64,000 nucleotides of DNA from Tubulanus polymorphus (GCF_964204645.1 NC_134035.1:10324451-10388450); one strand, 5' to 3'; positions 24,823 to 44,611 are shown, counted from the stretch's first letter. Made by a program: numbers and translations. The notes: generated from the sequence alone by a model not told the origin.

Positions 24823-25286
24823 AGTAATAGGGGTAATGGGCTTTCATACCAAAGGTCGAACGGTCGAGCTCGTAAAAAATGAAAAACATAAAAATAATAA
24901 CAATTTCTACTTGAATTACTCGCGAAACTCATAAAAATGAAAAATAAATTCTCACACGCTCGAATTTATTTTTCATTTTATGAGTTTCACTCCTAATTCA
25001 AGTAGAAATTGTAATTATTTTTATGTTTTTCATTTTTACTCACCCGCCCGTTCAACCTTTGATATGAAAGCCCATTACCCCTATTACTCTTAAAATATTC
25101 ATATATATATATGAATAACATTTAAATCATTGAACTTCTAAAATCAATTTAAATAAAAAATATAGTATTAAAATGGAAGCAAATAAGTACTACTGCCCAA
25201 CATGTAATATCGATATAGATAAATCCCAAAAAGCAAGACACAATAAAACTAGAACACATTTAGAGAATAAATTGAAACTAGAATAT
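24823..25286 (+). repeat. left terminal inverted repeat (~464 bp); first 266 bp form an imperfect hairpin
   Basis: Reverse complement of 42331-42792 apart from one AT unit; 24823-25088 is self-complementary around a loop at ~24952-24961. Confidence 0.95.
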
Positions 25287-25424
25287 TTACAGTTATATTC
25301 AGAACAGTTAACAAAGGGAAAGAAATTTATTGAATTATGGAATAATGATCCAAACAATGAACAATACGTTGAGGAATTTATTATCAAGGAATCGAAAGAA
25401 CTTATCAAAAGCAGCGAGGAATGA
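25173..25424 (+). CDS. 83-aa chimeric ORF: pPolB N-terminal zinc finger (duplicated by the TIR) fused to a short tail
   Basis: First 38 aa identical to the pPolB N-terminus; tail LQLYSEQLTKGKKFIELWN resembles the HNH ORF tail LQLYLDQLDKAKTFVELWN. Confidence 0.6.
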   Translation: MEANKYYCPTCNIDIDKSQKARHNKTRTHLENKLKLEYLQLYSEQLTKGKKFIELWNNDPNNEQYVEEFIIKESKELIKSSEE

Positions 25425-25503
25425 AAAAGGATGACGTTGGTCGAAGAAATGGAAGAGGATTCTAAAATTATTAACCAATTTAGTAAAAAAATACGTATAA
25501 TAA

Positions 25504-26172
25504 ATGGAACCAGAACAACCACAAATTATCAATATTACAAATAACACTGGCGTTATAAACATATACTACAAGAAGTGTTCTAAATGTGAATTAGATAAAT
25601 TAGCTTTAACAGAATTTAGTAAGCGTAAGATTAGCAAAGATGGTTTTCAATATTGCTGTAAAACTTGTTTTAAACTATATACCAAACAATACCGAGAAGA
25701 TAATAGAGAAGCTTACAATGATTATATGACAGAATATATGAGAGAAAGATATCAAACAGATCTTAATTTTAGATTGAAACAATGCTTAAGGACTAGATTA
25801 ACACAATTATTCAACAAAGAAACACATTCAGAAACACTATCTAATCTATTGGGTTGTTCAGATGAATTTCTCAAATCATGGATAATATATCAATTCGATG
25901 ATAAAATGAATATAGATAATTATGGTGAATACTTTCATATTGATCACGTGTTGCCGATTTCTAAATTTGACATGAATGATGAATACAATAAAAAACTTAT
26001 TTGGAACTGGAGAAATTTAAGGCCTTTAGAAAAGAAAGAAAATATAATTAAATCCAATAAACTAGATTTACAGTTATATTTAGATCAACTAGATAAAGCA
26101 AAGACATTTGTTGAATTATGGAATAGTATTTCACAGAATCAACCGCATTCTGAGGTTTTGATCAGTGGTTAG
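25504..26172 (+). CDS. HNH/endonuclease VII-like nuclease with an N-terminal Cys4 zinc ribbon (giant-virus/phage type)
   Basis: KKCSKC...DG...CCKTC; LLGCS...FHIDHVLP...NLRPLEKKENIIKSNK. Confidence 0.75.
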   Translation: MEPEQPQIINITNNTGVINIYYKKCSKCELDKLALTEFSKRKISKDGFQYCCKTCFKLYTKQYREDNREAYNDYMTEYMRERYQTDLNFRLKQCLRTRLTQLFNKETHSETLSNLLGCSDEFLKSWIIYQFDDKMNIDNYGEYFHIDHVLPISKFDMNDEYNKKLIWNWRNLRPLEKKENIIKSNKLDLQLYLDQLDKAKTFVELWNSISQNQPHSEVLISG

Positions 26173-26520
26173 AAAGCTGGCAATTCTATTTGAGCTTTGT
26201 ATGTATATAATACATAGCTTTTGCTTACTACTAAAACATATGTTGCCAAATATATCTTGTTTTCAATTCTAAAGAATTAATTAACTTCATCATAAAGAAC
26301 ATCTGTGCAGAAATAATTAGTTTGGTCGAACGTGCGCCACGTCGGCAGTTAGAAATCAACTTTCACATACATGGTACGTATTGGATATTCTCTCTCAAAA
26401 CACAGTTTACAGTTCTAAATCTAAATGTAAGTACCGTTTTTTGTAGTTATTATGAAGTAGGGAAACCTTTAAACAAATTTAAGTATAGTAATTCATTTTC
26501 ACGACATCTTTTAGATTAAA

Positions 26521-26978
26521 ATGGAATACAGAGATCAACCAGAAATTCTAAGCCAACCAACGGATGAGGAACGATTGCTACTGGATAGTGAAACTCAGGA
26601 ATCAATAGAAATGGAGGATGAAACTCTCGTAATTGACGAACAAACTTCACAAACATTACAAGAACATTTGGACTATCATCAAGAAATGGTGAAATACATA
26701 ATAGTGATGTAATACATAATAAACAATTACCGCGCGAACTACAATTACCAAAATTACCAGCAACGCGACTCAAATTGCTGTTGGGACTCAAAGAATCGAA
26801 AACTAAGAAAATGAGTGGAGATATCAGTGCCGGTTTTGAAACAAAACTGAGAAGAGTAGGAAGATTAATAAAATATGAAAAATTCAAAATATTAGGATTA
26901 GCATTTAGTGAAGTAGTGAGATATTTACCAGAAATTGAAGAAATGATTGTAAACAATCCAGTAATTAAAGAATTCTGA
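26521..26978 (+). CDS. hypothetical Polinton ORF(s), possibly one frameshifted gene
   Basis: Acidic 63-aa ORF starting at TAAAATG, overlapped by an open frame that ends at 26978. Confidence 0.35.
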
Positions 26979-27054
26979 ACAAAATTATAAATTATAACAC
27001 TGAAGGTCTTTGTAATATAGATATCAAAAAATGTTGTATATATCTGTTTTAATA

Positions 27055-27412
27055 TTGTATTGTTTACTGTTAACTAAGTATTGCGTAATAACCGGTCCGA
27101 TTGAACCGCATTTCTATTGTTCTCCATTGTGCTATTATTGATCGTTGTTAATGGCGGCGGTTGTTCTGTATTGATTGTTTACTGTTAACTAAGTATTGCG
27201 TAATAACCGGTCCGATTGAACCGCATTTCTATTGTTCTCCATTGTTCTACTATTGATCGTTGTTGACTGAAACAGCTGCTCAATATTGATTGGTTACAGT
27301 TCTATGTTTGAATGTTGTAGTTTACAGAATAAAAATATAACTGTGTATTGCGCAATAACCGGTCCGATTGGACCGCATTTCTATTGTTCTCCATTGTTCT
27401 ATTATCGATCGC
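27055..27412. repeat. three direct repeats in the Polinton non-coding region
   Basis: GTATTGCG(T/C)AATAACCGGTCCGATTG(A/G)ACCGCATTTCTATTGTTCTCCATTGT at ~27078, 27193 and 27345. Confidence 0.85.
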
Positions 27413-27840
27413 TAAAATTTACATAATAAATATATGTGTTTATGAAATAATATTTCCACCAGTCGTTTCTTTGAATTTATTTTCAGTTTTAGGATTTATT
27501 ATCGAGAATCCGAAATGACTTATCTGGACAGTTATAGTTACTGCTCCTAATAGATGGTGCCATAAACAGCACCCACACAGTGATAGACAATAGTAGTGAG
27601 ATATCAAATAGAATTTAAATAAAATATAATAAAAAAACAATAACTTCAACTAGCTAGTGAATTCTATTATATTTTTAATATTTTCTTTTCAAAAAGAGAA
27701 TACTTTATATTTTGAATAGATTCAAATATAAATTCTTTAACTTTAACTAACCTAGTCAATTTAGTATTAACCTAAAGAGATACTAGTATCATTTGAAGAA
27801 TACTTATAATATTTTTTTTTGCTTTTTTCCTCTAATATAA

Positions 27841-28443
27841 ATGTCAAAGAAATCTAATAAGAATAGTATTGATATCGAAAAAACATTAGATGATTTGGGT
27901 ATAAGTGATAATAAAGATACAGTTGTAACTAATTCTATTCAAGTTAATAACAATATAGATTATGAATACTATTTATATTGTAAGCATCATCTAGAACTAT
28001 TGATTGCCGGTGGAAAAACTAAAGAGTTTATTGGTAAAACAATAACTTTTCAAGAATTAGATAATATGAACAAAGAAAAAGTAATCAAATATTTTAAGAT
28101 TTATGAAGAGTCAAGATTAGCTAGAATAAATGATTCTATTTCTAATGGTATTGTCAAATGTTATTCTAAGTTATGTAACCAGTTAATACCAATTGATGAT
28201 GAAAATAAATTATATAATGATTTGAAAAATGACTATTTAGTTATGACTGAATTACAAAAATGGGTTGGATATGCTTCATTTCAATTAGGATCGGTTATGA
28301 CATTGATTTCTACTGGAGTTATAACATTTTCGAACATCAAGCCTATGGAATATAAATCAGGTAAGAACGAAACAGATGTACTACAACCAAACGTCGAAAC
28401 AGAAAATGAATCAGAACAAAAATTAACTAAAATAAATGAGTGA
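27841..28443 (+). CDS. hypothetical Polinton protein (200 aa)
   Basis: Intact ORF, TAAATG start, overlaps the next ORF; hydrophobic segment near the C-terminus. Confidence 0.7.
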   Translation: MSKKSNKNSIDIEKTLDDLGISDNKDTVVTNSIQVNNNIDYEYYLYCKHHLELLIAGGKTKEFIGKTITFQELDNMNKEKVIKYFKIYEESRLARINDSISNGIVKCYSKLCNQLIPIDDENKLYNDLKNDYLVMTELQKWVGYASFQLGSVMTLISTGVITFSNIKPMEYKSGKNETDVLQPNVETENESEQKLTKINE

Positions 28444-28822
28444 TGGAGTTAAGAAAAAGGCTAGATCCGAGAAACAAATTAAATGGGCAAGAGAATTAGG
28501 TAAAAGATCTTCAGAATTAAAAAAAGCTAAGAAAAAGAAATTAACTGATATAAATGAATCACCTGATGATGCCGTACGGCACCCACACGGTGGTATTGAT
28601 TCAAATAATAATCCATCTAATTCTTCTAATGCTGGAAGTAATTATAAATTATATATTACAATTGGATTAGTAACAGTTATTATATTATCCGGTGTAATAT
28701 ATAAATCAAAATTCAAATCTGACGATAAAGATGATCGGAAACTTAGTTATCCGTGTACAGACAATAAACCACCAGAAAATAAATCAAATGAAAATAAATC
28801 TAAAATATTATTAATGGATTAA
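28436..28822 (+). CDS. basic single-TM protein (128 aa)
   Basis: Lys/Arg-rich N-terminus; TM segment LYITIGLVTVIILSGVIY. Confidence 0.65.
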   Translation: MSDGVKKKARSEKQIKWARELGKRSSELKKAKKKKLTDINESPDDAVRHPHGGIDSNNNPSNSSNAGSNYKLYITIGLVTVIILSGVIYKSKFKSDDKDDRKLSYPCTDNKPPENKSNENKSKILLMD

Positions 28823-28825
28823 AAT

Positions 28826-29914
28826 ATGATGAAAAAAGAACAATATTTAAGAGATTTATATTATAACCCAGAAAGTGAAGTATCATTTTCTAACGTTTCA
28901 GAATTATGGAATAAAATTAAATCTGATAATAGCAATATAAAATATAGTGAATTAAAATCATGGTTACAAAATCAACCCACATATCAAATTCATAAAAAGA
29001 TGGATAAAAAATATTTAACAAGAAAAGTAATGGTTTCATATATTGACCAACAATGGCAAGCTGATTTAATTGACATGAAAAACTTAGAAGAATATAACAA
29101 AGGATATTTTTGGATACTGAATGTTATAGATATATTCAGTAGATACGCATGGAGTATCCCGATTAAAAATAAAACTGGTATAGAAGTTACAAATTCTTTC
29201 AAATTAATATTTAAAGAAGCTATCCCAGATAAAATACAATTTGATGAAGGTAAGGAATTTTATAACAAACATCTTAAAAAACTATTATCTGATAACGATG
29301 TAGAATATTTTTCAACACATTCAGATAAAAAAGCATCTGTTATAGAAAGATTTAATAAAACATTGAAAACTAGAATGTGGAAATATTTCACCGCTAATGA
29401 AACATATAAATATATCAATGTGTTAGATGATTTAGTTAAAGGTTATAATAATTCTAAACATAGTTCTATAAATATGAAACCTATACAAGCTAGAAAAGAA
29501 GAAAATTCAGAAATAGTTTGGAATAATTTATATGGAGCATTTGTTACACATGATTTTGGAGAACCTAAATTTAAAATAGGACAATATGTTAGAATTTCTA
29601 AATATAGAAAAACATTTTATAAAGGTTATACCCCTAATTTTACAGAAGAAATATTCAAGATTAAAAAGATAATATTAACTAAACCATTTGTTTATAAATT
29701 GTTTGATTTAAAAGATGAAGAAATATTAGGTTATTTCTATGAACAAGAATTATCATTAGTACCAAATCCAGATGAAATAGAATACAAAATAGAAAAGGTA
29801 TTGAAAACAAAAACTCTTAAAGGAAAAAAGTATTCTTTGGTGAAATATAAAGGATATGATGATAAATTTAATGAATGGATTTTATCTAGTAAAATTAAAA
29901 GAATAAATGAATAA
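28826..29914 (+). CDS. retroviral-like (rve) integrase with a C-terminal chromodomain
   Basis: DDE motifs WQADLIDM, IDIFSRYAW, QFDEGKEF, ASVIERFNKTLK; chromo-like YKIEKVLK...YSLVKYKGYDDKFNEWI. Confidence 0.95.
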   Translation: MMKKEQYLRDLYYNPESEVSFSNVSELWNKIKSDNSNIKYSELKSWLQNQPTYQIHKKMDKKYLTRKVMVSYIDQQWQADLIDMKNLEEYNKGYFWILNVIDIFSRYAWSIPIKNKTGIEVTNSFKLIFKEAIPDKIQFDEGKEFYNKHLKKLLSDNDVEYFSTHSDKKASVIERFNKTLKTRMWKYFTANETYKYINVLDDLVKGYNNSKHSSINMKPIQARKEENSEIVWNNLYGAFVTHDFGEPKFKIGQYVRISKYRKTFYKGYTPNFTEEIFKIKKIILTKPFVYKLFDLKDEEILGYFYEQELSLVPNPDEIEYKIEKVLKTKTLKGKKYSLVKYKGYDDKFNEWILSSKIKRINE

Positions 29915-30521
29915 AGATTTATTTATATTTGAACCACATAATATGTTAGTTACTGGAGTTACAAATTGTGGTAAAACACACTTCATATTATATTTATTAG
30001 AAACTATTTATAAGAATCATTTTGATAATATAATATTATTCTGCCCAACTTATGAAATGAATGAAACGTATAATAGAGATATAGTTTTTAAAGATAAAAA
30101 GTTTATTATATTAAATTCTAAAACAGTGAAAGATAATTTGGATAATTGTATAAAAATTGCATTAGATATTTATAAAGGATCAAATACATTATTTATTATT
30201 GATGATTGCGCAAATTTACATGATTCTAAAATTAGAGAAAGTGAGTTATGTTATTTAGCTTTCTCTGGTAGACATTTTGGGATAACAACATGGGTTTTAA
30301 ATCAGAAATATAATTCAATTGTGAAAGATTTTAGAGAGAATATAAGATTTCTAGTTTTATTCTACAACAAAGATAGAAAATCTATGCAACAATCATTAGA
30401 AGAAAATCAAATTATACCTACTGAATTACATGATGAATATATGAATAAATTAAAAAATAATAAAGGTTCAAAATTATTACTGAGATTACAATTTCCATAT
30501 GAATATAAATTTATAAAATAA
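29907..30521 (+). CDS. A32-like (FtsK/HerA) genome packaging ATPase
   Basis: Walker A GVTNCGKT, Walker B LFIIDD, GRH motif, LNQ. Confidence 0.9.
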   Translation: MNKDLFIFEPHNMLVTGVTNCGKTHFILYLLETIYKNHFDNIILFCPTYEMNETYNRDIVFKDKKFIILNSKTVKDNLDNCIKIALDIYKGSNTLFIIDDCANLHDSKIRESELCYLAFSGRHFGITTWVLNQKYNSIVKDFRENIRFLVLFYNKDRKSMQQSLEENQIIPTELHDEYMNKLKNNKGSKLLLRLQFPYEYKFIK

Positions 30522-30534
30522 CTATTTGTATACC

Positions 30535-30620
30535 TATGTATTAGATACCCTAATACCTAATACCCCATTAGATACCCTAATACCTGATACCCTAATACCT
30601 GATACCCTATTAGATACCTT
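30535..30620. repeat. short GATACCCTAATACCT-type tandem repeat between convergent genes
   Basis: About ten ATACC(C/T) units. Confidence 0.7.
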
Positions 30621-30675
30621 AAATAATTAAAACCCTTTTTTATTTACTATTATTTTATACAATTTTCAACCTTTA

Positions 30676-31659
30676 TTATTCGAGTGTTAGATAATTACTT
30701 TCTGAATCACTTTCACTATCAGACCCTAACAACATATTTAAATGCTCTACCGAATCTACATCAACATCTTTATAATTTTTTTTCACCTTTTTCGCCTTTT
30801 TTACCACACCACCAATAGTTGTTTCATTATAACGCTTATTCATCCTTTCTATTATATCATCAATAGTTTCTTCTTTATGTTTCATAGAATCTGTATTATC
30901 AATATGTTTATCTGTAACTATATCATCATGTGGGCGTATGGCGGCACCATTTTCATTATCATCTTTATTAGTGTTTGCTCCTAATATTTCATTTACAGTG
31001 TTTGATCCTAATATTTCATTAGCATCGGTTAAATCTAATTCATCGTTATTAGGTGTTGCTAATAATAAATCTTTATATAATTCTTTACCATTTACTTTTT
31101 TATTTGAAACAAATTTTGTAACATATCTAAATGGGTGTTCTATAAATTCTTTTTTACCAACACGTTCTATAACATTAGTAATATGTGAATTTGTATTCAT
31201 ATGTTTATTCCAATTTGATGGAGCGTTTGAAAATTCACCATTACAATAACCACAATAATTTCTATTTTCACTAACATCTAATATTATTGAATTAATATAT
31301 GTAGAAGGTATTACGTTATTAGATGTAGAAGGTATTACAGATGTAGTAGTAGGTATAACATTATTAGATGTAGTAGGTATTACAGATATAGTAGTAGGTA
31401 TTACAGATGTAGTAGGTATTACAGATGTAGTAGTAGGTATTACAGATGTAGTAGTAGGTATTACAGATGTAGTAGGTATTACATTATTATCAATTACACC
31501 ACTTTTATTATTATCGATTTCTATCAGTTTAGTTTTATAATTTTTAAAAATAGGATCAAATATCAAAGCTATATTACAAGGTATTACATAATATAAACCA
31601 TCATTATTTTCATGTGTATCGATGTATGGAATATGTTTATATACTTTACCTCCTTCCAT
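30676..31659 (-). CDS. 327-aa protein with VIPTT(T)S repeats and a C2H2 (matrin/U1-like) finger
   Basis: Repeat at ~31300-31490; CGYC...WNKHMNTNSH; acidic/basic tail. Confidence 0.7.
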   Translation of the reverse strand: MEGGKVYKHIPYIDTHENNDGLYYVIPCNIALIFDPIFKNYKTKLIEIDNNKSGVIDNNVIPTTSVIPTTTSVIPTTTSVIPTTSVIPTTISVIPTTSNNVIPTTTSVIPSTSNNVIPSTYINSIILDVSENRNYCGYCNGEFSNAPSNWNKHMNTNSHITNVIERVGKKEFIEHPFRYVTKFVSNKKVNGKELYKDLLLATPNNDELDLTDANEILGSNTVNEILGANTNKDDNENGAAIRPHDDIVTDKHIDNTDSMKHKEETIDDIIERMNKRYNETTIGGVVKKAKKVKKNYKDVDVDSVEHLNMLLGSDSESDSESNYLTLE

Positions 31660-31691
31660 TTATATAATAAATATTTATTAAAGTTAAAATT

Positions 31692-32939
31692 TTAATACAT
31701 AACACTATCTAATTGAGAATTTACAATATTTAATTGCGCATCAGATAATATATAAATGTGCATTTTAAAATTTTTGATTCCCTTTTTCTTTGTCATGAAT
31801 AATTGTATTCCATCTTTTGTATTTTGTAGTTTTTTCCCAGAACCATGTAATAAGTTATCTTCAGTTGTTCTAAAATCTAACCATAATGCATATTTATTAC
31901 CGGTATAATAATCAATTTGATTAATGTTACAATCTTCAGATGATTTTACTTTTTCATTCATAAAATGTTTTTTAATTTCTACCCATTGATCTATCATTCT
32001 CATTCCTTGACAAAATATTTTATTCGCTATACCTTCGATAGTTATTTCTACTTTTGTTATTTCAGGATTATAATAATTGTCAACATTTATTGCGCCATTA
32101 GTATACGTTCCAATGGTAAAAAATATTAATATACCTTTAATAGATCTTCTTGGGAAGTTAATATTCTCATTAATAATTTCATCATTTGCATTAATAGTTA
32201 CAGTTTTAAATTTATCAATATAATCATATAATAATGATAATCCTTGATTGTATTGAGTTTGAATTATACTTGAAATATTTTCATCAGTTACTGTATCATA
32301 TTCTAAACATATATTCAATAATTTATAACTCATATCTTTATTAACGCTAGATAATACAATTTCATTTACAGGAGCAAATGTTATCTCAAATATAATATCT
32401 TCTTGAATTGAGTATTTATATAAAGGCGCATTATTATTTATCAATTCAAAGTCTAATGGAATTTTATATTTACTTCCATATATACTTTTTATCAATTTAT
32501 CTACATCATTTGTTAATATTGCGCTATTGGCTTCTGATCTTAATTTATTTTGGTTTTCTGATTGGATGCCTTGAAATATCATATCATTTCTATTTTCTTT
32601 AGTTAACCATAAATCTTTATAATGCATAAATAAATTATAATCATCTAATGAGAAAACTGTTTCTGGACCAATCTTTATTGTTAACTTTTTAATCAAATAT
32701 CTTCCAACATTATCAACGACATAATTATTATTATTACCGATTACTTTTATATCGGCTGATAAATAAATACTATTTGGAACGTAAAAAGTATTTTGTGTTA
32801 ATCGAGGGATTCTAACGTATAAAGTTTCATCGGGATTAATATTTGAAGGGTTATGAGTAATTATATGATGTGATCTTTCTGCTTTAATAGCATTAGATAT
32901 TCTATGATTCTTAGAAGGATTGATATAACTCCCACTCAT
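31692..32939 (-). CDS. major capsid protein (double jelly-roll)
   Basis: 415 aa; NPSNINPDETLYVRIP, LLNICLEYD, FPRRSIKGILIFF, YYNPEITKVEITIEG, YALWLDFRT...LHGSG, typical of Polinton-type MCPs; gene context supports the call. Confidence 0.8.
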   Translation of the reverse strand: MSGSYINPSKNHRISNAIKAERSHHIITHNPSNINPDETLYVRIPRLTQNTFYVPNSIYLSADIKVIGNNNNYVVDNVGRYLIKKLTIKIGPETVFSLDDYNLFMHYKDLWLTKENRNDMIFQGIQSENQNKLRSEANSAILTNDVDKLIKSIYGSKYKIPLDFELINNNAPLYKYSIQEDIIFEITFAPVNEIVLSSVNKDMSYKLLNICLEYDTVTDENISSIIQTQYNQGLSLLYDYIDKFKTVTINANDEIINENINFPRRSIKGILIFFTIGTYTNGAINVDNYYNPEITKVEITIEGIANKIFCQGMRMIDQWVEIKKHFMNEKVKSSEDCNINQIDYYTGNKYALWLDFRTTEDNLLHGSGKKLQNTKDGIQLFMTKKKGIKNFKMHIYILSDAQLNIVNSQLDSVMY

Positions 32940-32980
32940 TTATTTAACAAAAAAATTAATTATTTATTTTTGATCATGGT

Positions 32981-34442
32981 TTACTTGATATTTTTTGATA
33001 TCATATTTACTAAACCAAAAATAATAGCACTTACAACTGTAATTAAAAATAAAATAATATGTTCAGCAGCAAAGTTAATAATGTTTCCTGCAGATTTCAA
33101 TATAAAACCAACAATTGAAGCAATAACTCCTGGCAATGCTGCAGCAGATTTTTTAGATAGTTCCCATAAATATTTTGCTAATTTCTTTAAACCATCTTTA
33201 ACTTTATCTTGTATAGAATTATTGCCTGGAGGTTTATCTGGTTTATTTGGAGTAGGAGTAAATTTTAAAGCATTTGATATTGCTAAACCAATTGTTGTAA
33301 ATACTATAGTTACAGCTGTTACAATTGAAAGAATTGTTATACCTTCTAATTTAAATAATAATCTTATTCTGTCTTTTAATGATATTCCAGAATTTGGTTT
33401 TATTAGATATCTTTTAAAAACATCTTTTAATCTTTTAAAATTATTACCAAATTCTTTTAATAATATATCTCTTTCACCTTTTTCGTACTTCTAAATTATC
33501 TTTTAAATTATCAATTTCTTTTTCTAAACGTAATTCTTTTTGTCTATACTCTATTTCATCAATTACTTGTCGTTCTAAATCAGACTTTAGTTGTTCTTCT
33601 TCTTCAATTGCATTAGTTAATTCTTTTTCCAAATACATAATTTTTTGATCTCTTATACTTTTATTATGTGCAATTTTATCAGCTTCATTTCTTATACTAA
33701 TAATTTCTCTAATTGCTTCATCAGAAAATATATCTAAATCTTCTAATTGTTGATCTGTTGCATCAAGTAATCCATTCGGTAAAAGTTTTTCAGTTTGAAC
33801 TTCGTTTGATTTAATTTTACTAGTTTTGGAAGTTTTATTCTGTTCAGAAGTTGTTTCTGTTTTTGAATTATTTTTGATTGTTTCAAATAATTCATTAATT
33901 CTTTGTTTAAATACTCTTTCATTTTTAATAATTTCTTCTTGTGTTACATTTTCTATTTCATTACTATTTCTTATTCTTTTAATTCTAGATAGGTCTAACT
34001 TAAGCAAAGTTGATTCTTTTAATATTTTGTTTTGTTTTTTATAAGAGATATCAATATAATAATCACCAGTCAAATGATAATAATATTCACCATCTAAAAA
34101 TTCTAAATTTTGCGCTAAAATTCTGGCGTCTCTAAAATTTATATTATATTCAGATCTTTCAAATATATGTTGTAATCTAAGCGCTTGGTTTATATTTTCT
34201 AAATCTTGTCTTATTAAATATGGATTTTCATTTTCAGGATTTATTCTCGATCTAGTTCTTCTATCAAATTCATCTGTTGATGGGACTTTAGAACCACTAT
34301 CTGCTAAATTAGAATTATATGTTGTATCATTATCATTATCAATATTAGTATCAGCAGTCATATAATCATCATTGTTAGTATTGGCATCATCATTATTTCC
34401 CATGTTTTCCATTTCATAATCTTCTCCACCTTCTACATCCAT
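32981..34442 (-). pseudogene. coiled-coil plus multi-TM membrane protein, frameshifted at ~33480
   Basis: The 322-aa ORF ends EVRKR* at CGAAAAAGGTGA. Removing one A gives KGERDILL...LFKLEGITILSIVTAV...KSAAALPGVIASIVGFIL...ILFLITVVSAIIFGLV* ending at 32981. Confidence 0.75.
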
Positions 34443-34458
34443 TTACATAATAAAAAAA

Positions 34459-35759
34459 TCAAAATTTAAAATATAATATTCCTCCGATTACAATTCCTAT
34501 ACAAGTTATAGCTAATTTAGTATTTTCATGGGATTTATTATCATCATTTAGTTTAATTATATCATGTTGAATTTTATCAGTTCTATTATTTTCTGATGTA
34601 TTGTAATCTTTTATTTTAGAATCATTATCCAATTTAACATTCTTAGTTTTAGTTTCTGTTGATTGAATATGTTTTTATTTTTTTCACCTTCCATTAATTT
34701 TGGAGCACTAATAATCTTTTTATTTATATCATTTAATCCAAATGAATTATTTATTGTTGCAGTTTTAATTAGATTATTATAACCAATTATATTTCCCATC
34801 TTTAATACTAAATCATTAGAAATAATTAATAGATTAGGGCCTATACAATAATTTAGTCTTACATGAGATTTATCTAAATAATTTTGATATCTTATAATGT
34901 TTTCTGGAATCGATCTATTTTTATCATTATGAATTGAATATTCAAATAAAACTTTAAACTGTTTCTGCGCATCGAATGAAGTGTTATCATTTCCAATTAT
35001 TGGGGATCTTGTTTCAACTTGAGCGCCCAAAATACATATCAAATAAATTCTAATAGATTGATTTATTCTTTGTATACCTGATTTTGTAAAACCTTCACCA
35101 TTTTCTAAAATGAAATTAACCCAACCATTATTATTATCAATTTTATAATTATGATAAGCTGAAATTCTATGCATATAATCAATTCTTTTTATTTCATATT
35201 CTTCACCAACACCTTGCAATTTACCATGCGCTCTAAAATCGGAATTAATATTTATATTAAATTCATTACATATTTTATAAAACTTGGATATATTAATATT
35301 ATTATCCAATTCTTTAAAATATTTAGACCCGGGTAAAGGACATTCTAATTCATTTAATATTATTCTGATTTGAAAATATGTGTGAAATCTAAATATTGTG
35401 TGAATTAATTTTAAATCAGAAAACTTCAAATTTTTATCTAAGTTATTTAAATGATCATTCCAACTAATTCCACATCCTGTTGTTGCACAATAAACAGCAA
35501 AATTTAATTGATTCTGTCAATATTTCATATTAGATTTTACTTTATATATATGATATTCATCTCGAGTAAAAGTAACTTCATATGTATTAAATATATTTTC
35601 CATTTTAGAAATAAAAAACTGTGATTCATTAACATAAATTTCTAAATTAGTTAATGAATTTAAAACTATATTTTTATATGTAATATTTTTCTTAAAATCT
35701 ATTGCCGGAATATTATATTTAATTGATTTATTATATTGGAAAGCTTTTGGAAACCCCAT
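34459..35759 (-). pseudogene. Polinton protein with C-terminal TM anchor; one in-frame TGA and one frameshift
   Basis: MGFPKAF...NMKY[TGA]QNQLNFAVYCATTGCGIS runs in frame into ORF 34611-35429. After an A-run near 34680, another frame continues to HENTKLAITCIGIVIGGILYFKF* at 34459. Confidence 0.75.
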
Positions 35760-35775
35760 TTATATAACTAAAAAA

Positions 35776-36216
35776 TTAATAATTTATTAATTCTTTTAAT
35801 AATTTATCTTGTTCTTCAACTGTTATATGACCATTTAAACTTATTATATAATCTAGTGTGTTCTTTAATTTATTTATTTCTTTTATATTAGATTTTATTT
35901 TTTCTTTATTACTTTTTATATTTAATTTTGAACTTATACCAGTTAAAACACTTGAACTTAATCCTAACACACCAATTGATATAGCTAAAGGTGTTAATGG
36001 GCTGAATATTGCTAAAAATGTTATTACAGAACTAATTGTAACCGAACCACTTATAATAAAATAATATATAATTTTACTTTTTAAATATTTTTTCTTTAAT
36101 ATATATATCTTTAAGTCACTTTCAAATTCTAATATTTGTTTTTCTAAATATGTTTTTGATTTAGTTTTATTTATATCATGAGGAATAATATCAATACTAT
36201 CAACTTTATCTTCCAT
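35776..36216 (-). CDS. two-TM protein (146 aa), SLATT-like topology
   Basis: Helix, two hydrophobic segments, then coiled coil; TAAATG start. Confidence 0.6.
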   Translation of the reverse strand: MEDKVDSIDIIPHDINKTKSKTYLEKQILEFESDLKIYILKKKYLKSKIIYYFIISGSVTISSVITFLAIFSPLTPLAISIGVLGLSSSVLTGISSKLNIKSNKEKIKSNIKEINKLKNTLDYIISLNGHITVEEQDKLLKELINY

Positions 36217-36235
36217 TTATTTAGAATAAAAATTA

Positions 36236-36658
36236 CTAATTAGTAAACTTATAAGCAACAAATATAACAATAACAGTTCCACCTAAAATCCATATTATTT
36301 CATATTTCTGTTGTTCTTTACTTGGGGTATAATAATCTGATAATTTAGGTTTGTATAGATGTAATTTTTCATTATTTGTTACTGCGTTATATAAACTCAT
36401 TGCATCATCAACTGATTGAAAATCTCTATGTGAAATCTTCTGATCATATAATTCCTTGTTAATATAATCCATATAGTTTTGTCGTTTTTCTCTATATTCT
36501 TCTGCTGCTTTATTGTATTTCTCTAACGCTAAGTTATGTCTTCTTTGTTTTCCTAATGAACTATTTTTATCAATATGTTTGAATAAATAACCACCACCAG
36601 TAAATGCTAAAGCGTTAACAATTGCCGATCCTATAATAGTTATAATTGCAGAAGCCAT
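36236..36658 (-). CDS. 140-aa protein with hydrophobic N- and C-termini
   Basis: MASAIITIIGSAIVNALAFTGGGYLF...RRHNLALEKY...IIWILGGTVIVIFVAY. Confidence 0.7.
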   Translation of the reverse strand: MASAIITIIGSAIVNALAFTGGGYLFKHIDKNSSLGKQRRHNLALEKYNKAAEEYREKRQNYMDYINKELYDQKISHRDFQSVDDAMSLYNAVTNNEKLHLYKPKLSDYYTPSKEQQKYEIIWILGGTVIVIFVAYKFTN

Positions 36659-36682
36659 TTATTTAGCAAAAAAATTATGCAT

Positions 36683-36904
36683 TTATATAGGAGGAATATA
36701 TTTTTGTTTTTCCAAATAATCAATAGTTAAATTAGATAAAGTAACTGCTAACGTTAATTTCAAAATATCATTTATATCAAATCTATCAACATTAACACTT
36801 CCCATTTTGAATACTTTTTTTAATACCATTGAATAACCAACAGTTCCAACTGATAGTAATGCGCCATTATATAATCCAGTTATTATCCACTTATTATCAC
36901 TCAT
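36683..36904 (-). CDS. 73-aa small hydrophobic protein
   Basis: Intact ORF with T7-N6-TAAATG upstream. Confidence 0.65.
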   Translation of the reverse strand: MSDNKWIITGLYNGALLSVGTVGYSMVLKKVFKMGSVNVDRFDINDILKLTLAVTLSNLTIDYLEKQKYIPPI

Positions 36905-37246
36905 TTATTTATCAAAAAAATTACTATCATCAAAATATTTAGTTATCTTATTTATGATTATTTCAACATTTATTTCATTACTAGTTTTATGATTATCATA
37001 TATTTTGGATAATATGTTTTTAATATCATCAATAATTCCATCTTCATTTAATTCATAATATTCTAAAGGTGATTTAATTAAATCAATTACTTTTTCTATA
37101 TTATACTTTTCTTTATCAATCATTGATGCATTGTTAAATGATTTACTTTTTATATCAGTAATTACATCATTTAGTTTAATTCTCATTTCTTTACCATGTT
37201 TAAAATCAAATCCAAAACATATACTCGGTCCAACTGTTATATTCAT
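36905..37246 (-). CDS. hypothetical protein (113 aa)
   Basis: Intact ORF with T7-N7-TAAATG upstream; abuts the next gene. Confidence 0.6.
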   Translation of the reverse strand: MNITVGPSICFGFDFKHGKEMRIKLNDVITDIKSKSFNNASMIDKEKYNIEKVIDLIKSPLEYYELNEDGIIDDIKNILSKIYDNHKTSNEINVEIIINKITKYFDDSNFFDK

Positions 37247-37263
37247 TTATATAGTGAAAAAAA

Positions 37264-38025
37264 TTACTCTCTACATCTTATAACTAATTCATAAATTACA
37301 GGGAAATTATTTAAATCAATTAAGTATCCATTATGATTTCTAATTTCTAATCTAAAATTATTAAAACGAGGAATGCATGGTTTGAAATCACATTCTGTTA
37401 AATTATAATTTATTTGCGTTCCAAATTCTTTAACATTCTTCAATGGTAAAATGTTTAGTAAACCAGAATTACAAGTTATATCTTTAGTTGCTTCGAATGT
37501 TTTTGTAGGATCGATTAAATTGCAATAAATATAAAAATGTGTGTAAGGTATTAAGTTTGGTGTAGTAGCGTCAATATTTGTAAAAGATCTATCTGGAAGA
37601 ATTCCTAACAGTTTAGCTATAGGTTTTTTTACCATAAATTTATGTTTTTCACTATTAGACAACCTTATCTTTATTCTATCAGAACTCTCACTTTTTAAAA
37701 ATCTAATACTAAACCCAGAACTACTACCTAATTTGTGCCAGGCTTTTCTATTAATTTCTTGTGCTAATGTATCTAAATTATATAACCCCGGTTTTAAATA
37801 TAAATAGACCCATTCATTTTTATTTTTATTAAAAATTAAAAAAGCTCTATGTTCAATAGTTTTATTCGATATATTGTAAAAAGAATTACATAAACTTATA
37901 TTTACTAATTTAAAATCAACACAATTCTTAAATTCTCTATCTAATTGTACTAATAAATTATGAGATTTATAATTTGTAAGTTTTCTAGAATCAACAAATA
38001 TTCTGTATTCTTTTAATTCCACCAT
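37264..38025 (-). CDS. minor capsid (penton, single jelly-roll) protein
   Basis: NSFYNIS, LKPGLYNLDTL, LLGI, FYIYCNLID, FRLEIRNHNGYLIDLNNFPVIYELVI pattern of Polinton minor capsid proteins. Confidence 0.75.
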   Translation of the reverse strand: MVELKEYRIFVDSRKLTNYKSHNLLVQLDREFKNCVDFKLVNISLCNSFYNISNKTIEHRAFLIFNKNKNEWVYLYLKPGLYNLDTLAQEINRKAWHKLGSSSGFSIRFLKSESSDRIKIRLSNSEKHKFMVKKPIAKLLGILPDRSFTNIDATTPNLIPYTHFYIYCNLIDPTKTFEATKDITCNSGLLNILPLKNVKEFGTQINYNLTECDFKPCIPRFNNFRLEIRNHNGYLIDLNNFPVIYELVIRCRE

Positions 38026-38042
38026 TTATTTTACATATTTTC

Positions 38043-38384
38043 TTATTCGAAATCTATTTCATGGTGCCCTTTTTCATTCTTACCTTTATATACGAAATAG
38101 AAATCTCCAGAACATAATTCTTCTAAGTCTTCACTTGATAATCTATGAAATCTATCAGGTAAATATGTTCTGAATTTATGTGTATTTCCTTTTAATCCTT
38201 CATATTCTAAATGAATTACTAATTTATCTCCATATTTATTAGTAATTGTTTCAATGTTAGTAATTAAATATTTCTTGTGAATTGTTAACTCAGTTAGTTT
38301 TTTAAATTTATAATCTACAGATTTAACGCTTGAAGTATCTTTAATTCTATCTAAGAATTCACTGTGTACTTGTTTACTCTCCAT
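38043..38384 (-). CDS. 113-aa protein, possible OB-fold ssDNA-binding protein
   Basis: FKKLTEL...KYLIT...TNKYGDKLVIHL...TYLPDRF...YFVYKG; directly downstream of pPolB; fold is my inference. Confidence 0.5.
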   Translation of the reverse strand: MESKQVHSEFLDRIKDTSSVKSVDYKFKKLTELTIHKKYLITNIETITNKYGDKLVIHLEYEGLKGNTHKFRTYLPDRFHRLSSEDLEELCSGDFYFVYKGKNEKGHHEIDFE

Positions 38385-38412
38385 TTATTATACAAATTTT
38401 TATTGAAATTGA

Positions 38413-41400
38413 TTAACACGTTAGAATCCTTTTCATAATCTCATTTTCTTTTGTTTCTTCTCTTTTGAATTTTATATATTCATCTAAATTGCAACCATAG
38501 GCGACTGTGTGGATTCCATCATCTAAAATATATCTTTTATCATCAAATGGGTTTAGACTTATCTTCTCTATCTCTTCAATATACATTTCATGATCTTCAG
38601 ATCTTAAACATTTCATTTTATGTTTTCTAACTTCTTCTTTAAATATACAATTGATGTAATCTTTAAAATGAATATTCTTTTCAACAACGCTTTTGGTTAT
38701 TCCTTTTAACTTTTTAGCTTCATGTTCTTTAGTTTTATATGAATACATTTTAGATCTAATACCGATGAACTCTATCATTTCTTCACCACCTAATTCATCC
38801 TTAAACTTCCCAGGAACTTTTTTATTATCATTGGTAAACAATTCATGATCTTTAGGATAGTTACTGAAATCAAAATGATGTTTTAATGTTTTTAAATCAT
38901 CAGTTATGTTATCAGTTTTTATCTTTAATATGTAAGAATCTGTATCAAAATATAATATTTCTATATGTTTTTCTCCAAAAAGTGGTTGTAATACATTATA
39001 ATAGAATTCATACATCAATAGCTTTGAAATTTCTAAAACTGCAGCTCCAACATAAATTGGTTTATTAAATTTCATTGATGTTCTCTTCATCTTAACTGCA
39101 GCTAAATTTTCATCAAATATTCTGTTACCTATAAACTTAGGATATGATTGTAAATGCCTTATCCTTTTACCATTACTAACTAACTCAATATCACTTCTAT
39201 TTCTTATGTTTTCACAAGTTTTTCCATAGAACGCATTGTTCATTAGTTTAAAAAAATCCTTCTTTTAAAAATCAGTTTTAGATTTAGTTCTCTGTTTGGT
39301 GTTAAAATCTATATATTTTTCTAACCACTTAGATTGACTAAATGAAATATATCTATGTACTTTTTTTAATATCATTCCTTGTCTCAAATAAAACTTCAAC
39401 ATTCTATAATGTACTACATAATTATATTAATCTTCTTGAGTTACCATTAACTTTTCAGTATGAATATGATTATCGGGTTTAATTCTTTTTTGATAATTTG
39501 ATAATTCTTCATGTTTAACAGTTTTATGTTCGGGACAATATGCTAGATTTCTAGATTTGAATTTAATATTTTCAGGGTATTCTAAATCTACAACAAAGAA
39601 GTAACCAGTATCTGAATCATCTGCAATATCTAGAATTCTTTTCTTCCAATCAAATTTATCAATTTGTAAAACTTCAGTTATTTCAAACATCCCATAAGGT
39701 TGTGGTTCCATCATTGCCCAACCATAAAGATTATTTGCATCTATGTATAATAATTTATATCCAGGATTATCATTTACATTGAAATATCTATCACCTAATA
39801 CACCTGAAACACCTCCTCTTATAGATTTTTCAAATAATAGTAATTGATCTATATTTGTTAACAAATCCATTTTTATATCTGTAAATTTTAAACCACAATC
39901 CCAAGTTAATCCTGGGCTAGAATAACAATGACAAGGATCAATATTAAAATATTTTAGGTTTACATCTCTAAACCTTTCGAATATATCGGTTAATAATAAT
40001 ACATCTGATTTTAAATATAAATCTACTAATTGTCCATGATTTTTAATTTCGAAATGATTCCAAATATTCAATGTTCTATTATAGACTTCATCTTTAACAT
40101 ATTCATTTTTTAATTCATCATAGAATTGTTCTTTCAATAATTCAGTTATTTTAAAATCATTATGATTTTTATAGAAAGAATATGGAATTGCTCCTTTATA
40201 TCTCATTAATTGAAAATCATCATAATTTGGGTAGTGTTGTTTTAATATCTTTAATTCATCATCAACTAATGATTTTGATAAGTTATCTAATGAACTACTT
40301 AAAAATCTATATGAATCTATAAATCTTAGACACCCAAATTGGAATGATATATAATTCTCAGATGTTTTAGCTAACATTCTAAATTTATAAGTTGGTATTT
40401 TATCTTTTGATCTATTTGAATTTAATATTTCTATTTCATTATTGATTTCTTCTATTTTATAACATAGCTGTTTGATAAATAAATGTGCATCATATCCTGA
40501 TAGATTATGAAATATAACTGGTACAAAGTTAATTTTCTTAGCTTGTAAGTTACAATTCTCATGTGCAGCGCCTCTAAACTTTCCATTCAAATGATCATGG
40601 TCTCTTACTTTTTTATCTTTATAATTAAATATCTTTTCACAATAATAACATTTATCTGCAAACTCAAATTCTTCTTTATCTTCTTCTGTCATAATTATTT
40701 CTATATTCTTATTTAACTTTTCATTAAATTTTATTTCATATTCAATTAATAAGTCACAAAAATGATTGATAACATTTTCATTTCTATAATTATAATATTC
40801 ACTTTCAATTAGTTCTGGATAATCAGATTTAATATATAACCCGAAAGCTGCGGCTGATTGATGAATCTTTTTAATTGTATTTGTTATTGGTGGTTCATCT
40901 GAATAATCACTTTCATTAGAATTTAATTTCTTTCTTTTATAATATATATCTTTTCTATCTTTATCTGTTAATTCTTTATTTAATGATTCAAAATCTCCAT
41001 ATATTACAAATGGTACTTTATTTTTGTAATCATATTTTTTGAATTCTAATATTTTATCTTTTTCATTTGGTAAAACTAATTTACAATAATCATGATTATC
41101 ACCTAGTTGTTTATGATTTAATAATGTACTTTCATTACTGAATCTATGTAAACATTTTCTACATAGATATATTTTATGGTGATCATTTTCTGATTTGAAA
41201 AATAAATCGATTTGTTTAATCCACATATAATGATTCTCATAATATAGTATATCTATAACATCATTTGAATCATAATCTTTTGATAGATATAAAGGTTCTA
41301 ATGTATAATGTTTTATGTTGTTACCTTTTGTATTTGGTAATTTGATTAAATCAAATACATTTATCTTTAAATTATTATCTCTTTCTATTTTTGGAATATT

Positions 41401-42444
41401 TTTAATTCTAACAGGATACTTATCTATCTTATAATTATTTTCAAATTGTTTATAATGAGTTAATCTAAAACTATGTGTAATATCTTCTGTTGGATGTAAA
41501 TAACTTATTATAGCCCATATAAAACATTTATTATCAAAATTTTGTATATTTATTACACCATTAGTTTTAAATGGTAATTTAATATAACTTGTTCCATTTA
41601 TACTATCATCTTTATAATATGATAAATTATTTTCATCAATTGGTTTTGATTTAGTTAACTTATCATATTTTGTGTTATAAACATGTAAAGTTATAAATAT
41701 TATCTCATCAAATATTAAACCAGATCCTTCAAAATATTTCTCTTCTATTTTAGTTTTTACTTCATTATAACATTTATTTAATTTATCATCTATATGTTGT
41801 TTAGATATAATATGTTGTGAATGAGAATTTATATTATATATTGGTTTATCTTCAGATTTTATAAACTTTACTTTAACTGATATACTAATTTTAGGATATT
41901 CAACATCTGTAATTATTTTTATTATTTCTTTCATATTTTCTAAATGTTTTTTATTTTCTTCTAATTTTTTTCCTTTATGAAATTTAAACTCGATAGCTGC
42001 TGGACCAATATCACTTTTAAATGCTTCGGTTATCTCTATATCTTTTTTATTATCTAATGAATTAATATAATTTCTTACATCTTCCATGTATGGTCTTTTA
42101 TTGTTTAATTTATTTTTTATTCTTTTAATTGTATTCTGTTTCTTATCGTTATCATTATCAAAATAATCTTCACCTAAAATATCATTATTCTTATTTCTAA
42201 TATGACTTATAGATTTTAAATGTTCTTTATAATATCTTTTATCACTGAATGATTGATTACATGTATCACATTTGTATGTTTCTTTTTCATTCTTTAATTC
42301 TTCTAATTTAGTTTCTAATATATCATCCTTATATTCTAGTTTCAATTTATTCTCTAAATGTGTTCTAGTTTTATTGTGTCTTGCTTTTTGGGATTTATCT
42401 ATATCGATATTACATGTTGGGCAGTAGTACTTATTTGCTTCCAT
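38413..42444 (-). pseudogene. protein-primed family B DNA polymerase (~1343 codons) with N-terminal zinc fingers and an EndoVII-like insert; two in-frame TAA stops
   Basis: ExoI YGDFES, ExoII FHNLSGYD, ExoIII YLKSDV, motif A YIDANNLYGWAM, B KLMNNAFYGK, C YFDTDS, SKMY; insert CYYC...VRDHDHLNGKFRGAAHENCN; stops at 39427-39429 and 39265-39267 with the frame conserved across both. Confidence 0.93.
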
Positions 42445-42792
42445 TTTAATACTATATTTTTTATTTAAATTGATTTTAGAAGTTCAATGATTTAAATGTT
42501 ATTCATATATATATGAATATTTTAAGAGTAATAGGGGTAATGGGCTTTCATATCAAAGGTTGAACGGGCGGGTGAGTAAAAATGAAAAACATAAAAATAA
42601 TTACAATTTCTACTTGAATTAGGAGTGAAACTCATAAAATGAAAAATAAATTCGAGCGTGTGAGAATTTATTTTTCATTTTTATGAGTTTCGCGAGTAAT
42701 TCAAGTAGAAATTGTTATTATTTTTATGTTTTTCATTTTTTACGAGCTCGACCGTTCGACCTTTGGTATGAAAGCCCATTACCCCTATTACT
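42331..42792 (-). repeat. right terminal inverted repeat; 42527-42792 forms an imperfect hairpin
   Basis: Reverse complement of 24823-25286; includes the pPolB upstream region and first 38 codons. Confidence 0.95.
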
Positions 42793-42896
42793 AGTGTGAA
42801 CTTACAGTTAGAAACAAAAAAAAAAACCAAAAACATTATTGGATGTACAATGTTGTAGTCGAGCAAACAGCACTCAATCGTATCATCATCAATACA

Positions 42897-44294: not shown

Positions 44295-44611
44295 TGTTAT
44301 GTTCTTGGGAGATGACTACTTCATACACTGGTCAACAGATCAACGTGCTGATGATTTTATACTAGCTCACGACGTTCTTCGTTTCGGATTTGATTTGAGT
44401 TCAGTGGAAAAAACAAGTTATCCGCGGTGTATTTTTCACCACGTCCCGCGATCTGCTGTATGTGTGTACCTCGACTAGCACACGGTGTTATGTAACAATG
44501 TTGTATACCGTACGAGGTCTCAGCCGCATATTTGCCTTTTTATCCAACATGACACGTCATAGTCTGGCCATGCTATTAATAGTTTATCATTTGTGTCAGC
44601 CCCGCGCGGCG

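What the first reader, a model, noticed from the sequence alone, without database searches (positions are those of the whole stretch)
25145..42470. Poxvirus-type late/intermediate promoter grammar on almost every gene: candidate satellite (virophage-like) virus of an unknown pox-like virus
Seen: TAAATG forms the start of 13 ORFs (25504, 27841, 28436, 29907, 31659, 32939, 34442, 35759, 36216, 36658, 36904, 37246, 38025) plus 38384; TAAAATG starts 25173, 26521 and 42444. Only once (36904) is the TAA an upstream stop codon. Two classes appear. T5-7 + 6-9 nt + TAAATG precedes the MCP (TTTTTTTGTTAAATAAATG) and the membrane-protein block (TTTTTTTATTATGTAAATG, TTTTTTTGCTAAATAAATG, TTTTTTTGATAAATAAATG, TTTTTTTCACTATATAAATG). 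A-run + TAAA(A)TG precedes pPolB (AAATAAAAAATATAGTATTAAAATG), HNH (AAAAAAATACGTATAATAAATG) and the 113-aa gene next to pPolB (AATAAAAATTTGTATAATAAATG); the penton gene is also in this class. Established: vaccinia late promoters are a T-rich run, ~6-bp spacer and TAAAT(G); intermediate promoters are an A-rich core with a TAAA initiator; virophages share promoter motifs with their helper viruses. Inference: this integrated virus has no RNA polymerase or introns and is wired to be switched on by a pox-like cytoplasmic transcription machinery, replication genes first and most structural genes later. That would make it an inducible endogenous hyperparasite and possibly an antiviral defence of an invertebrate. 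Caveat: AT richness and an AAAATG Kozak context raise the background.
Basis: partly seen in the sequence, partly recalled or inferred. Interest (0 to 1): 0.92.

Follow-up and report, generated by a model that had tools for sequence, protein, structure and literature searches.

The report
Worm Polinton with poxvirus-style promoters
A virus-like mobile element (a Polinton) in a ribbon-worm genome starts 14 of its 16 genes with the TAAATG signal that poxviruses use for their later genes, as do its closest relatives, so it likely depends on an unseen pox-like virus to switch it on, and would be an animal counterpart of the virus-parasitising virophages of protists.

Summary
The stretch is an 18-kb Polinton/Maverick (24823-42792; 6-bp target duplication, ~463-bp terminal repeats, capsid, ATPase, integrase, pPolB; no protease found) in the nemertean Tubulanus polymorphus; this copy has three broken genes. 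14 of 16 genes start TAAATG, against 43 of 685 other ATGs. The capsid gene starts TAAATG in 13 of 14 relatives at >=50% identity but in 1 of 41 more distant ones (1 of 17 AT-rich ones). A second element, T nine bases upstream, is present at 88% of 81 starts (controls 33%). T at -3 is an unfavourable translation context, and head-to-head genes 24-30 nt apart both carry the motif: this fits a transcription start inside TAAAT. No RNA polymerase or TBP was found. TAAATG is not pox-exclusive: invertebrate iridovirus-like records use it at ~40% of starts, but with strict AATAAATG and 3' hairpins, which the element lacks, like entomopoxvirus loci. Best reading: helper-dependent transcription by a pox-type virus (0.6). 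The two timing classes are only weakly supported; no helper, RNA or antiviral effect is shown.

The parts
24823..42792 (.). Polinton/Maverick element, 17,970 bp, 24.5% GC, inserted between host BAAT-like genes
   Evidence: host gene 100% identical to a protein named for Tubulanus polymorphus
24817..24822 (+). left target-site duplication AGTGTG (right copy 42793-42798)
24823..25286 (+). left terminal inverted repeat; starts AGT; outer 266 nt form an imperfect palindrome; holds a copy of the pPolB start (25173)
42331..42792 (-). right terminal inverted repeat; holds the pPolB promoter and start
25504..26172 (+). 222-aa zinc-ribbon/HNH-like protein (label from recalled motif); TAAATG, A-type upstream
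   Evidence: no Pfam hit
27841..28443 (+). 200-aa conserved Polinton protein; TAAATG, T-type
   Evidence: homologues in 41 loci
28436..28822 (+). 128-aa basic protein with a hydrophobic segment; TAAATG lying inside the upstream gene
28826..29914 (+). rve integrase with chromodomain; the one gene without TAAATG/TAAAATG at its first ATG
   Evidence: PF00665 E 2e-8, PF00385
29907..30521 (+). A32-like packaging ATPase; TAAATG inside the integrase gene, A-type
   Evidence: PF04665 E 7.5e-12
30676..31659 (-). 327-aa protein with Thr-rich repeats and a zinc finger; TAAATG, A-type
   Evidence: (weak zf-C2H2_2)
31692..32939 (-). double-jelly-roll major capsid protein; T7 + 6 nt + TAAATG
   Evidence: model pLDDT 85; Foldseek to iridovirus, PBCV-1, mavirus capsids
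32981..34442 (-). coiled-coil/membrane protein (485 aa in L003); broken here by a frameshift near 33480; TAAATG, T-type
34459..35759 (-). conserved Polinton protein (442 aa in L003); broken here by a stop at 35517 and a frameshift near 34674; TAAATG, T-type
35776..36216 (-). 146-aa SLATT-like two-membrane-helix protein; TAAATG, T-type
   Evidence: NF033632 E 5.6e-5, below cut-off
36236..36658 (-). 140-aa conserved membrane protein; TAAATG, T-type
36683..36904 (-). 73-aa conserved membrane protein; TAAATG whose TAA is the upstream stop; T-type
36905..37246 (-). 113-aa helical protein seen only in close relatives; TAAATG, T-type
37264..38025 (-). 253-aa putative minor capsid protein (unconfirmed); TAAATG, A-type
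   Evidence: homologues in 27 loci; no library hit
38043..38384 (-). 113-aa protein, lead only: phi29 SSB-like; TAAATG, A-type
   Evidence: Atlas 0.84 to PF17427 cluster
38413..42444 (-). protein-primed family B polymerase with zinc fingers and endonuclease VII domain; one frame, interrupted by two in-frame stops (39427 and one before 39243); TAAAATG, A-type
   Evidence: 31% to PF03175-bearing L017 protein, E 1e-123

Best explanation
This is an integrated, multi-copy Polinton whose genes start at a TAAATG motif with a T-rich element nine bases upstream, and it is likely transcribed not by host RNA polymerase II but by the post-replicative machinery of a pox-type helper virus. Shown: motif, spacing, conservation in a clade, one motif per gene in 16-41-nt spacers, no polymerase gene found. 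Inferred from vaccinia: transcription starts at the first A of TAAAT, slippage adds a 5' poly(A) leader, so the T at -3 never enters the mRNA and the leader supplies the A-rich context; transcripts read through without fixed 3' ends. Inferred from mavirus/CroV: copies stay silent until a matching helper infects the cell, then the element's pPolB copies the genome and its capsid and ATPase package it, while the integrase returns copies to the chromosome. How a cytoplasmic polymerase would first reach a nuclear copy is unexplained. This copy has broken pPolB and two other broken genes, so it could act only if complemented.
For: 14 of 16 starts. Capsid start TAAATG in 13 of 14 relatives at >=50% identity, including loci of 36-44% GC, vs 1 of 41 below 50% and 1 of 17 AT-rich ones, P 9e-7; these rows form one clade, SH-aLRT 98, quick tree. 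T at the 9th base before TAAAT in 88% of 81 starts vs 33% of 135 non-start TAAATG; T-run 5-10 nt upstream in 43 of 81 vs 12 of 135; vaccinia late promoters are described as TAAATG with a conserved T ten bases upstream (PMC11980589, passage). Base -3 is A in 46 of 55, 29 of 48 and 93 of 192 starts of three other Polinton groups but T here. Head-to-head genes 24-30 nt apart with TAAATG on both sides in L009, L010, L012, L013, L036. AATAAA is not avoided in coding strands (241 vs 248 expected; 6 in the capsid gene, 0 in three host genes) and not enriched after stops (28 of 87 vs 24%). Entomopoxvirus loci: 15 of 23 and 9 of 21 starts. Element resembles them, not iridovirus-like loci, in AATAAATG share (25 of 68; pox 4 of 24; irido 45 of 49, P 8e-10), 3' hairpins (4 of 87; 5 of 43; 85 of 130) and tandem gap (26; 22; 82-84 nt); 57 of 76 starts score higher under the pox matrix. 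A second Polinton lineage, L211, has 7 of 7. Two clade members carry a deoxynucleoside kinase. No polymerase, TBP or TFIIB hit in window or clade proteins scanned.
Against: No helper virus or helper-derived transcription gene was found, and the host genome could not be searched. TAAATG is also common at starts of iridovirus-like records (59 of 138, 30 of 71, 34 of 100) and four other giant-virus loci (18 of 49, one site each selected by the pattern). The sharp T at the 9th base is not seen in the small entomopoxvirus sample (13 of 23; 63% at its other starts), sits one base from the position given for vaccinia, and the T/(A+T) profile correlates better with iridovirus-like (0.50) than pox (0.37) starts. 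Matrix cross-scores also separate starts in other giant viruses (P 0.005), and their controls are mostly coding DNA. No poxvirus of nemerteans turned up in my searches. GC-rich relatives without the motif also lack AATAAA after stops (2 of 118), so that absence is not specific. The loci are fragments, some near-duplicates, and one clade is one evolutionary event; L036 and L211 add at most two more.
Confidence: 0.6

Rival explanations
1. Helper-dependent, but the helper is an invertebrate iridovirus or another nucleocytovirus whose late machinery also starts near TAAATG.
For: Iridovirus-like records start 34-43% of genes with TAAATG; iridovirus-like particles are reported from a marine worm (PMC5923455, passage); 9 of 14 window starts read AATAAATG; profile correlation 0.50.
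Against: Iridovirus-like starts are AATAAATG in 45 of 49 cases, element starts in 25 of 68; their genes end in hairpins (63-68%) and the element's do not (5%).
Confidence: 0.15
2. The element, or a sister element in the same genome, encodes its own promoter-recognition factor or polymerase part, and TAAATG is a private promoter read in the nucleus.
For: Earlier unchecked notes describe Polintons with own TBP/TFIIB; relative L027 has a weak VLTF3-like ORF (E 3.6e-5, just under cut-off); several window proteins have no assigned function.
Against: No TBP, TFIIB, VLTF or polymerase match among 20 window proteins or clade proteins scanned; the clade-specific 113-aa protein folds as a small helical bundle; L027 lacks TAAATG (0 of 13 starts); many internal AATAAA sites would be expected to cut Pol II transcripts (inference).
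Confidence: 0.12
3. The promoters are a relic of a helper-dependent ancestor; present copies only transpose or are dead.
For: This copy has three broken genes.
Against: The motif is kept across capsids 50-76% identical and across gene rearrangements; terminal repeats are identical over 288 and 184 nt; the site is empty in one contig of run X1 and ends join many different flanks, so the family moved recently.
Confidence: 0.1
4. AT-richness, a Kozak-like context, or stop-start translational coupling.
For: Element is 24% GC; spacers are short.
Against: Shuffle maximum 8 vs 14 observed; AT-rich outgroups lack it (1 of 17); -3 is T, not a purine; TAA is the upstream stop in 1 of 14; head-to-head pairs have no upstream stop.
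Confidence: 0.03

Closest known systems
Polintons/Mavericks (adintoviruses; PMC8097293, PMC8502044, passages)
   Same: Terminal repeats starting AGT, 6-bp duplication, pPolB, rve integrase, A32-like ATPase, double-jelly-roll capsid, no introns.
   Different: No adenain protease found here or in 78 proteins of ten relatives; a uniform pox-type start motif is not mentioned in the passages I saw (no 'promoter' in PMC8502044).
Mavirus and type-4 EMALEs of Cafeteria burkhardae (PMC10945749, passages)
   Same: Integrated, no polymerase, one helper-type late promoter across genes; clades differ in promoter motif.
   Different: Protist host, virophage capsid lineage, CroV motif; reactivation and protection were shown there, not here.
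Entomopoxvirus-associated PLVs AHEV_PLV1/2, CBEV_PLV1 (PMC11296320; passages and part 2 of 8)
   Same: Polinton-like elements of invertebrates proposed as hyperparasites of poxviruses.
Poxvirus intermediate/late promoters (PMC11980589, PMC5294985, PMC4542343, passages) and yeast pGKL elements (PMC6211774, passages)
   Same: TAAAT fused to the start codon, T-rich element upstream, compact and head-to-head layout.
   Different: T peak at the 9th rather than the 10th base; A-run at 10-15 rather than 15-19; pGKL2 brings its own polymerase.

Membership tests
Polinton/Maverick | terminal inverted repeats starting AG and 6-bp target duplication | tested here: met
Polinton/Maverick | protein-primed PolB | tested here: met
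   E 1e-123 to a PF03175-bearing relative; broken in this copy
Polinton/Maverick | rve integrase and A32-like ATPase | tested here: met
Polinton/Maverick | double-jelly-roll major capsid protein | tested here: met
Polinton/Maverick | single-jelly-roll minor capsid protein | tested here: inconclusive
   conserved 253-aa ORF, no library hit, not folded
Adintovirus (canonical Maverick gene set) | adenain cysteine protease | tested here: not met
   no protease match in 20 window proteins or 78 proteins of ten relatives; sequence search only
Poxvirus late/intermediate promoter | TAAAT overlapping the start codon | tested here: met
   14 of 16
Poxvirus late/intermediate promoter | T-rich element about ten bases upstream (late); A/T-rich core 15-19 bases upstream (intermediate) | tested here: inconclusive
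   T 88% at 9, 74% at 10, 70% at 11; A peak at 13-15; offset from the review's positions
Poxvirus late/intermediate promoter | transcription start in TAAAT with non-templated 5' poly(A) | not testable with these tools
   needs 5'-end RNA data
Iridovirus-type gene signals | strict AATAAATG start and 3' hairpins, as seen in the iridovirus-like records | tested here: not met
   25 of 68 and 4 of 87 vs 45 of 49 and 85 of 130
Virophage lifestyle (mavirus-like) | no own RNA polymerase; shares the helper's late promoter | tested here: inconclusive
   no polymerase found; helper unknown
Virophage lifestyle (mavirus-like) | replicates only with the helper and lowers its yield | not testable with these tools
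   no infection data

The most novel reading that the evidence does not exclude
Several lineages of animal Polintons are endogenous virophages of undiscovered pox-like viruses of marine invertebrates; their promoter type names the helper, and their copies in the worm genome act as an infection-triggered antiviral reserve, the animal equivalent of mavirus.
Probability: 0.3. Interest if true: 0.92.

Novelty: new variant of a known kind. Interest (0 to 1): 0.72.

Why it matters
No Maverick particle had been observed when PMC8097293 was written (abstract listing), and how animal Polintons are transcribed is open. A helper-type promoter would explain their silence and give a cheap test: short promoters in a reporter, in cells infected with laboratory poxviruses. 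It would also predict pox-like viruses in nemerteans and make the start motif a sequence marker for sorting Polinton clades by likely helper (TAAATG, T-A(n)-ATG, none). Promoter sharing is known for protist virophages and poxvirus-associated PLVs are known from insects; the link between the two was not found in my ten literature searches, which cover only open-licence PMC papers and bioRxiv.

Tried and rejected
No whole genome is held for the window, so host-wide start contexts, other copies and integrated helper genes were not searched. Capsid searches of viral contigs found nothing. Sequencing runs: no RNA holder listed; X8, X7, X9, X10 gave next to no cover of element or host gene, which says nothing on expression. 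The entomopoxvirus-associated PLV record was not in the annotated collections and the ATPase had no match in 'phages'. The primary vaccinia promoter paper PMC3196450 is not held; supplements of PMC11296320 were not opened and could bear on the novelty claim. Early terminator TTTTTNT is depleted in coding strands (27 vs 62), but plain T5 runs are depleted in GC-rich relatives too, and it is barely enriched after stops (15 of 87 vs 12%): inconclusive. The 113-aa protein at 37246 gave no significant fold match; the 442-aa core protein no Atlas hit; pPolB, capsid and putative penton no useful PDB sequence hit; HNH-like homologues carry no informative names. Of 180 ORFs from clade loci only the kinase matched proteins in 20 fetched large-virus loci; that set is too small to name a donor. 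The idea that the T-run is the upstream gene's terminator was rejected because it also stands in head-to-head pairs. The terminal palindrome as a pox-specific trait was rejected because GC-rich L072 has one too. The group labels used were set after seeing the motif; the unbiased test is the identity split. L002, L011 (near-duplicates) and L014 were left out; L002 and L014; L070 and L079 were too short for the tree.


Full report
What it is. The finding lies in a 17,970-bp, 24.5%-GC element at 24823-42792, flanked by AGTGTG on both sides and bounded by ~463-bp inverted repeats that start AGT and are identical over 288 and 184 nt. It sits in a tandem array of BAAT-like genes; the neighbour is 100% identical to a protein named for the nemertean Tubulanus polymorphus. 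It encodes an rve integrase with chromodomain and an A32-like ATPase, a double-jelly-roll capsid protein (pLDDT 85; best matches iridovirus and PBCV-1 capsids, also mavirus) and a pPolB. It is a Polinton of a lineage in which I found no adenain. Three genes are broken in this copy: pPolB (two in-frame stops), the gene from 35759 (stop and frameshift) and the gene from 34442 (frameshift). In raw reads X6 depth per direction is 37-474 over the element against 9 on the left flank, its ends run into many flanks, and one contig of X1 skips the whole element: a multi-copy family with a polymorphic insertion.

The observation. 14 of 16 inferred gene starts are TAAATG; pPolB has TAAAATG, the integrase neither. 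Other ATGs of the element have it in 43 of 685 cases; shuffled upstream regions give at most 8. Spacers in the tandem block are 16-41 nt (one is 0) and hold little but the motif; three starts keep it although it lies in or on the end of the upstream gene.

It is a clade trait. Among 82 related loci, 55 had a full-length capsid start: TAAATG in 13 of 14 at >=50% identity, 1 of 41 below, 1 of 17 among the latter with GC under 44%. L006-L008 keep it at 36-44% GC. In these loci nearly every gene has it (L001 7 of 7, L003 15 of 17), whatever the gene order. In a quick ML tree 16 such rows and five unlabelled proteins form one clade (SH-aLRT 98); L036 (12 of 14 starts) is a separate long branch. A pattern scan of viral contigs found another Polinton, L211, with a different gene layout and 7 of 7 starts, two of them selected by the pattern. 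Other AT-rich relatives start T-A(n)-ATG instead, GC-rich ones show no fixed motif.

It looks like a promoter, not a translation signal. Base -3 is T, whereas it is mostly A in the three other groups and in 6 of 7 host ORFs. Over 81 starts there is a second element: T at the 9th base before TAAAT in 88% (135 non-start controls 33%), T at 10-12, A at 13-15. Divergent genes 24-30 nt apart carry both halves on both strands, which leaves no room for templated leaders. In vaccinia, transcription starts in TAAAT and slippage on three template Ts makes a 5' poly(A) leader (PMC6211774, passage; PMC4542343, passage); late promoters have TAAATG and a conserved T at the 10th base upstream, intermediate ones lack it (PMC11980589, passage); T residues, a 5-7-bp spacer and TAAAT are given in PMC5294985 (passage). 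Coding strands do not avoid AATAAA (241 vs 248 expected; ratios 0.76-0.85 in other groups, a modest contrast).

Which helper. A scan with the element's pattern returned 120 stretches (80 with flanks; 50 of 64 parts scanned); the locus most enriched for TAAATG starts was L139, 9 of 13, with NPH-II, D5, G9/A16 and E10 genes. A wider piece of the same record has spheroidin and 15 of 23; a second poxvirus record found by protein homology has 9 of 21. But the motif is not exclusive: records with MSV199/DUF3627 genes, which I read as invertebrate iridoviruses (recalled family signature), have 59 of 138, 30 of 71 and 34 of 100, and four other giant-virus loci 18 of 49. Three features separate them: AATAAATG share (element 25 of 68, pox 4 of 24, irido 45 of 49), perfect 3' stems of 9 bp or more (4 of 87, 5 of 43, 85 of 130), median tandem gap (26, 22, 82-84 nt) (seven of the iridovirus-like loci). 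57 of 76 element starts prefer the pox matrix. Against: the pox sample is small (23-24 starts, insects only), shows T at the 9th base in only 13 of 23, and the A/T profile correlates better with the iridovirus-like set (0.50 vs 0.37). So 'nucleocytovirus-type post-replicative promoter' is firmer (about 0.75) than 'pox-type' (0.6). Relatives of poxviruses are reported from marine sediments (10.1101/2024.03.23.586382, passages), so the helper need not be a poxvirus proper.

The two classes. In the window the 10th base is T in nine genes (capsid, membrane and core genes) and A in six (HNH-like, ATPase, zinc-finger protein, putative penton, SSB-like protein, pPolB). Across the clade it is T in 40 of 48 structural and 10 of 20 DNA-handling genes (P 0.007; 0.019 with the putative penton as structural; my grouping, orthologues not independent), and orthologues of three genes change class. 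A timing difference is possible, not shown.

Own factor? Earlier unchecked notes of this scan describe Polintons with their own TBP. No such match was found among 20 window proteins, 12 further proteins of the window and clade, or 78 of ten relatives. The clade-specific protein at 37246 folds as a helical bundle; that at 38384 leans to phi29 SSB (lead only). Several proteins stay unassigned.

Comparison and novelty. The arrangement parallels mavirus, where only EMALEs with the CroV late motif respond to CroV (PMC10945749, passages; also 10.1101/2025.10.09.676808, passages). Poxvirus-associated PLVs are published without promoter analysis in the main text (PMC11296320). Also seen as passages only: PMC8097293, PMC8502044, PMC5923455, PMC11788076, PMC7427789, 10.64898/2026.10.13.758929, 10.64898/2026.07.28.741278. 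In ten searches I saw no report of pox-type promoters on an animal Polinton. Verdict: real, conserved, best explained by dependence on a pox-type helper; helper, transcripts, induction and defence are unshown. New variant of a known kind; interest 0.72.

Noticed in passing
window 24823-25088 and 42527-42792: The outer 266 nt of each terminal repeat are one imperfect palindrome (DNA fold -99.7 kcal/mol, z -22.8). L211 has a 185-nt hairpin upstream of pPolB, GC-rich L072 one at its end. pPolB carries an endonuclease VII domain, which might resolve such structures.
   Followed up: partly
window 24875-25037 and 42578-42740: AAAAATGAAAAA occurs six times in the window, all in the terminal repeats (0.19 expected); it resembles the 'A-rich interrupted by TG' poxvirus early core but lies 140-300 nt from the pPolB start.
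   Followed up: partly
L003:10343-10981, L007:2898-3377: Deoxynucleoside kinase genes in two clade members; the L003 gene has T-run plus TAAATG.
   Followed up: partly
L027:5082-5576: Weak Pox_VLTF3-like ORF in a GC-rich Polinton without TAAATG.
   Followed up: no
L018, L020, L031, L037, L056, L057, L075, L080-L082: AT-rich relatives start genes with T-A(3-6)-ATG, and L054/L053 with TATATA-ATG: perhaps other helper types.
   Followed up: no
GC-rich relatives (L016, L017, L024, L027, L028, L030, L039, L040, L044, L049, L072): TTTTTNT follows 12 of 118 stops (2% expected) and AATAAA 2 of 118; DTAAG is depleted on both strands in a larger set of 19 such loci.
   Followed up: no
L279-L307 (iridovirus-like records): About 40% of starts are AATAAATG with near-invariant AA; I saw no mention of this motif in the review passages read.
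   Followed up: partly
window 35776-36216: SLATT-like membrane protein; such proteins are reported in polisuviruses (10.64898/2026.10.13.758929, passage).
   Followed up: no
window 15962-24079 and 42897-54346: Tandem array of at least eight intronless BAAT/acyl-CoA thioesterase-like gene copies.
   Followed up: no
window 26172-27840: Mostly non-coding stretch with short ORFs (26521, 26811) and three copies of a ~105-120-nt repeat at 27050-27410.
   Followed up: no
window 7439-8338 and 56619-58810: 30-nt tandem repeat array; a 497-nt inverted repeat pair (96%), probably another transposon.
   Followed up: no
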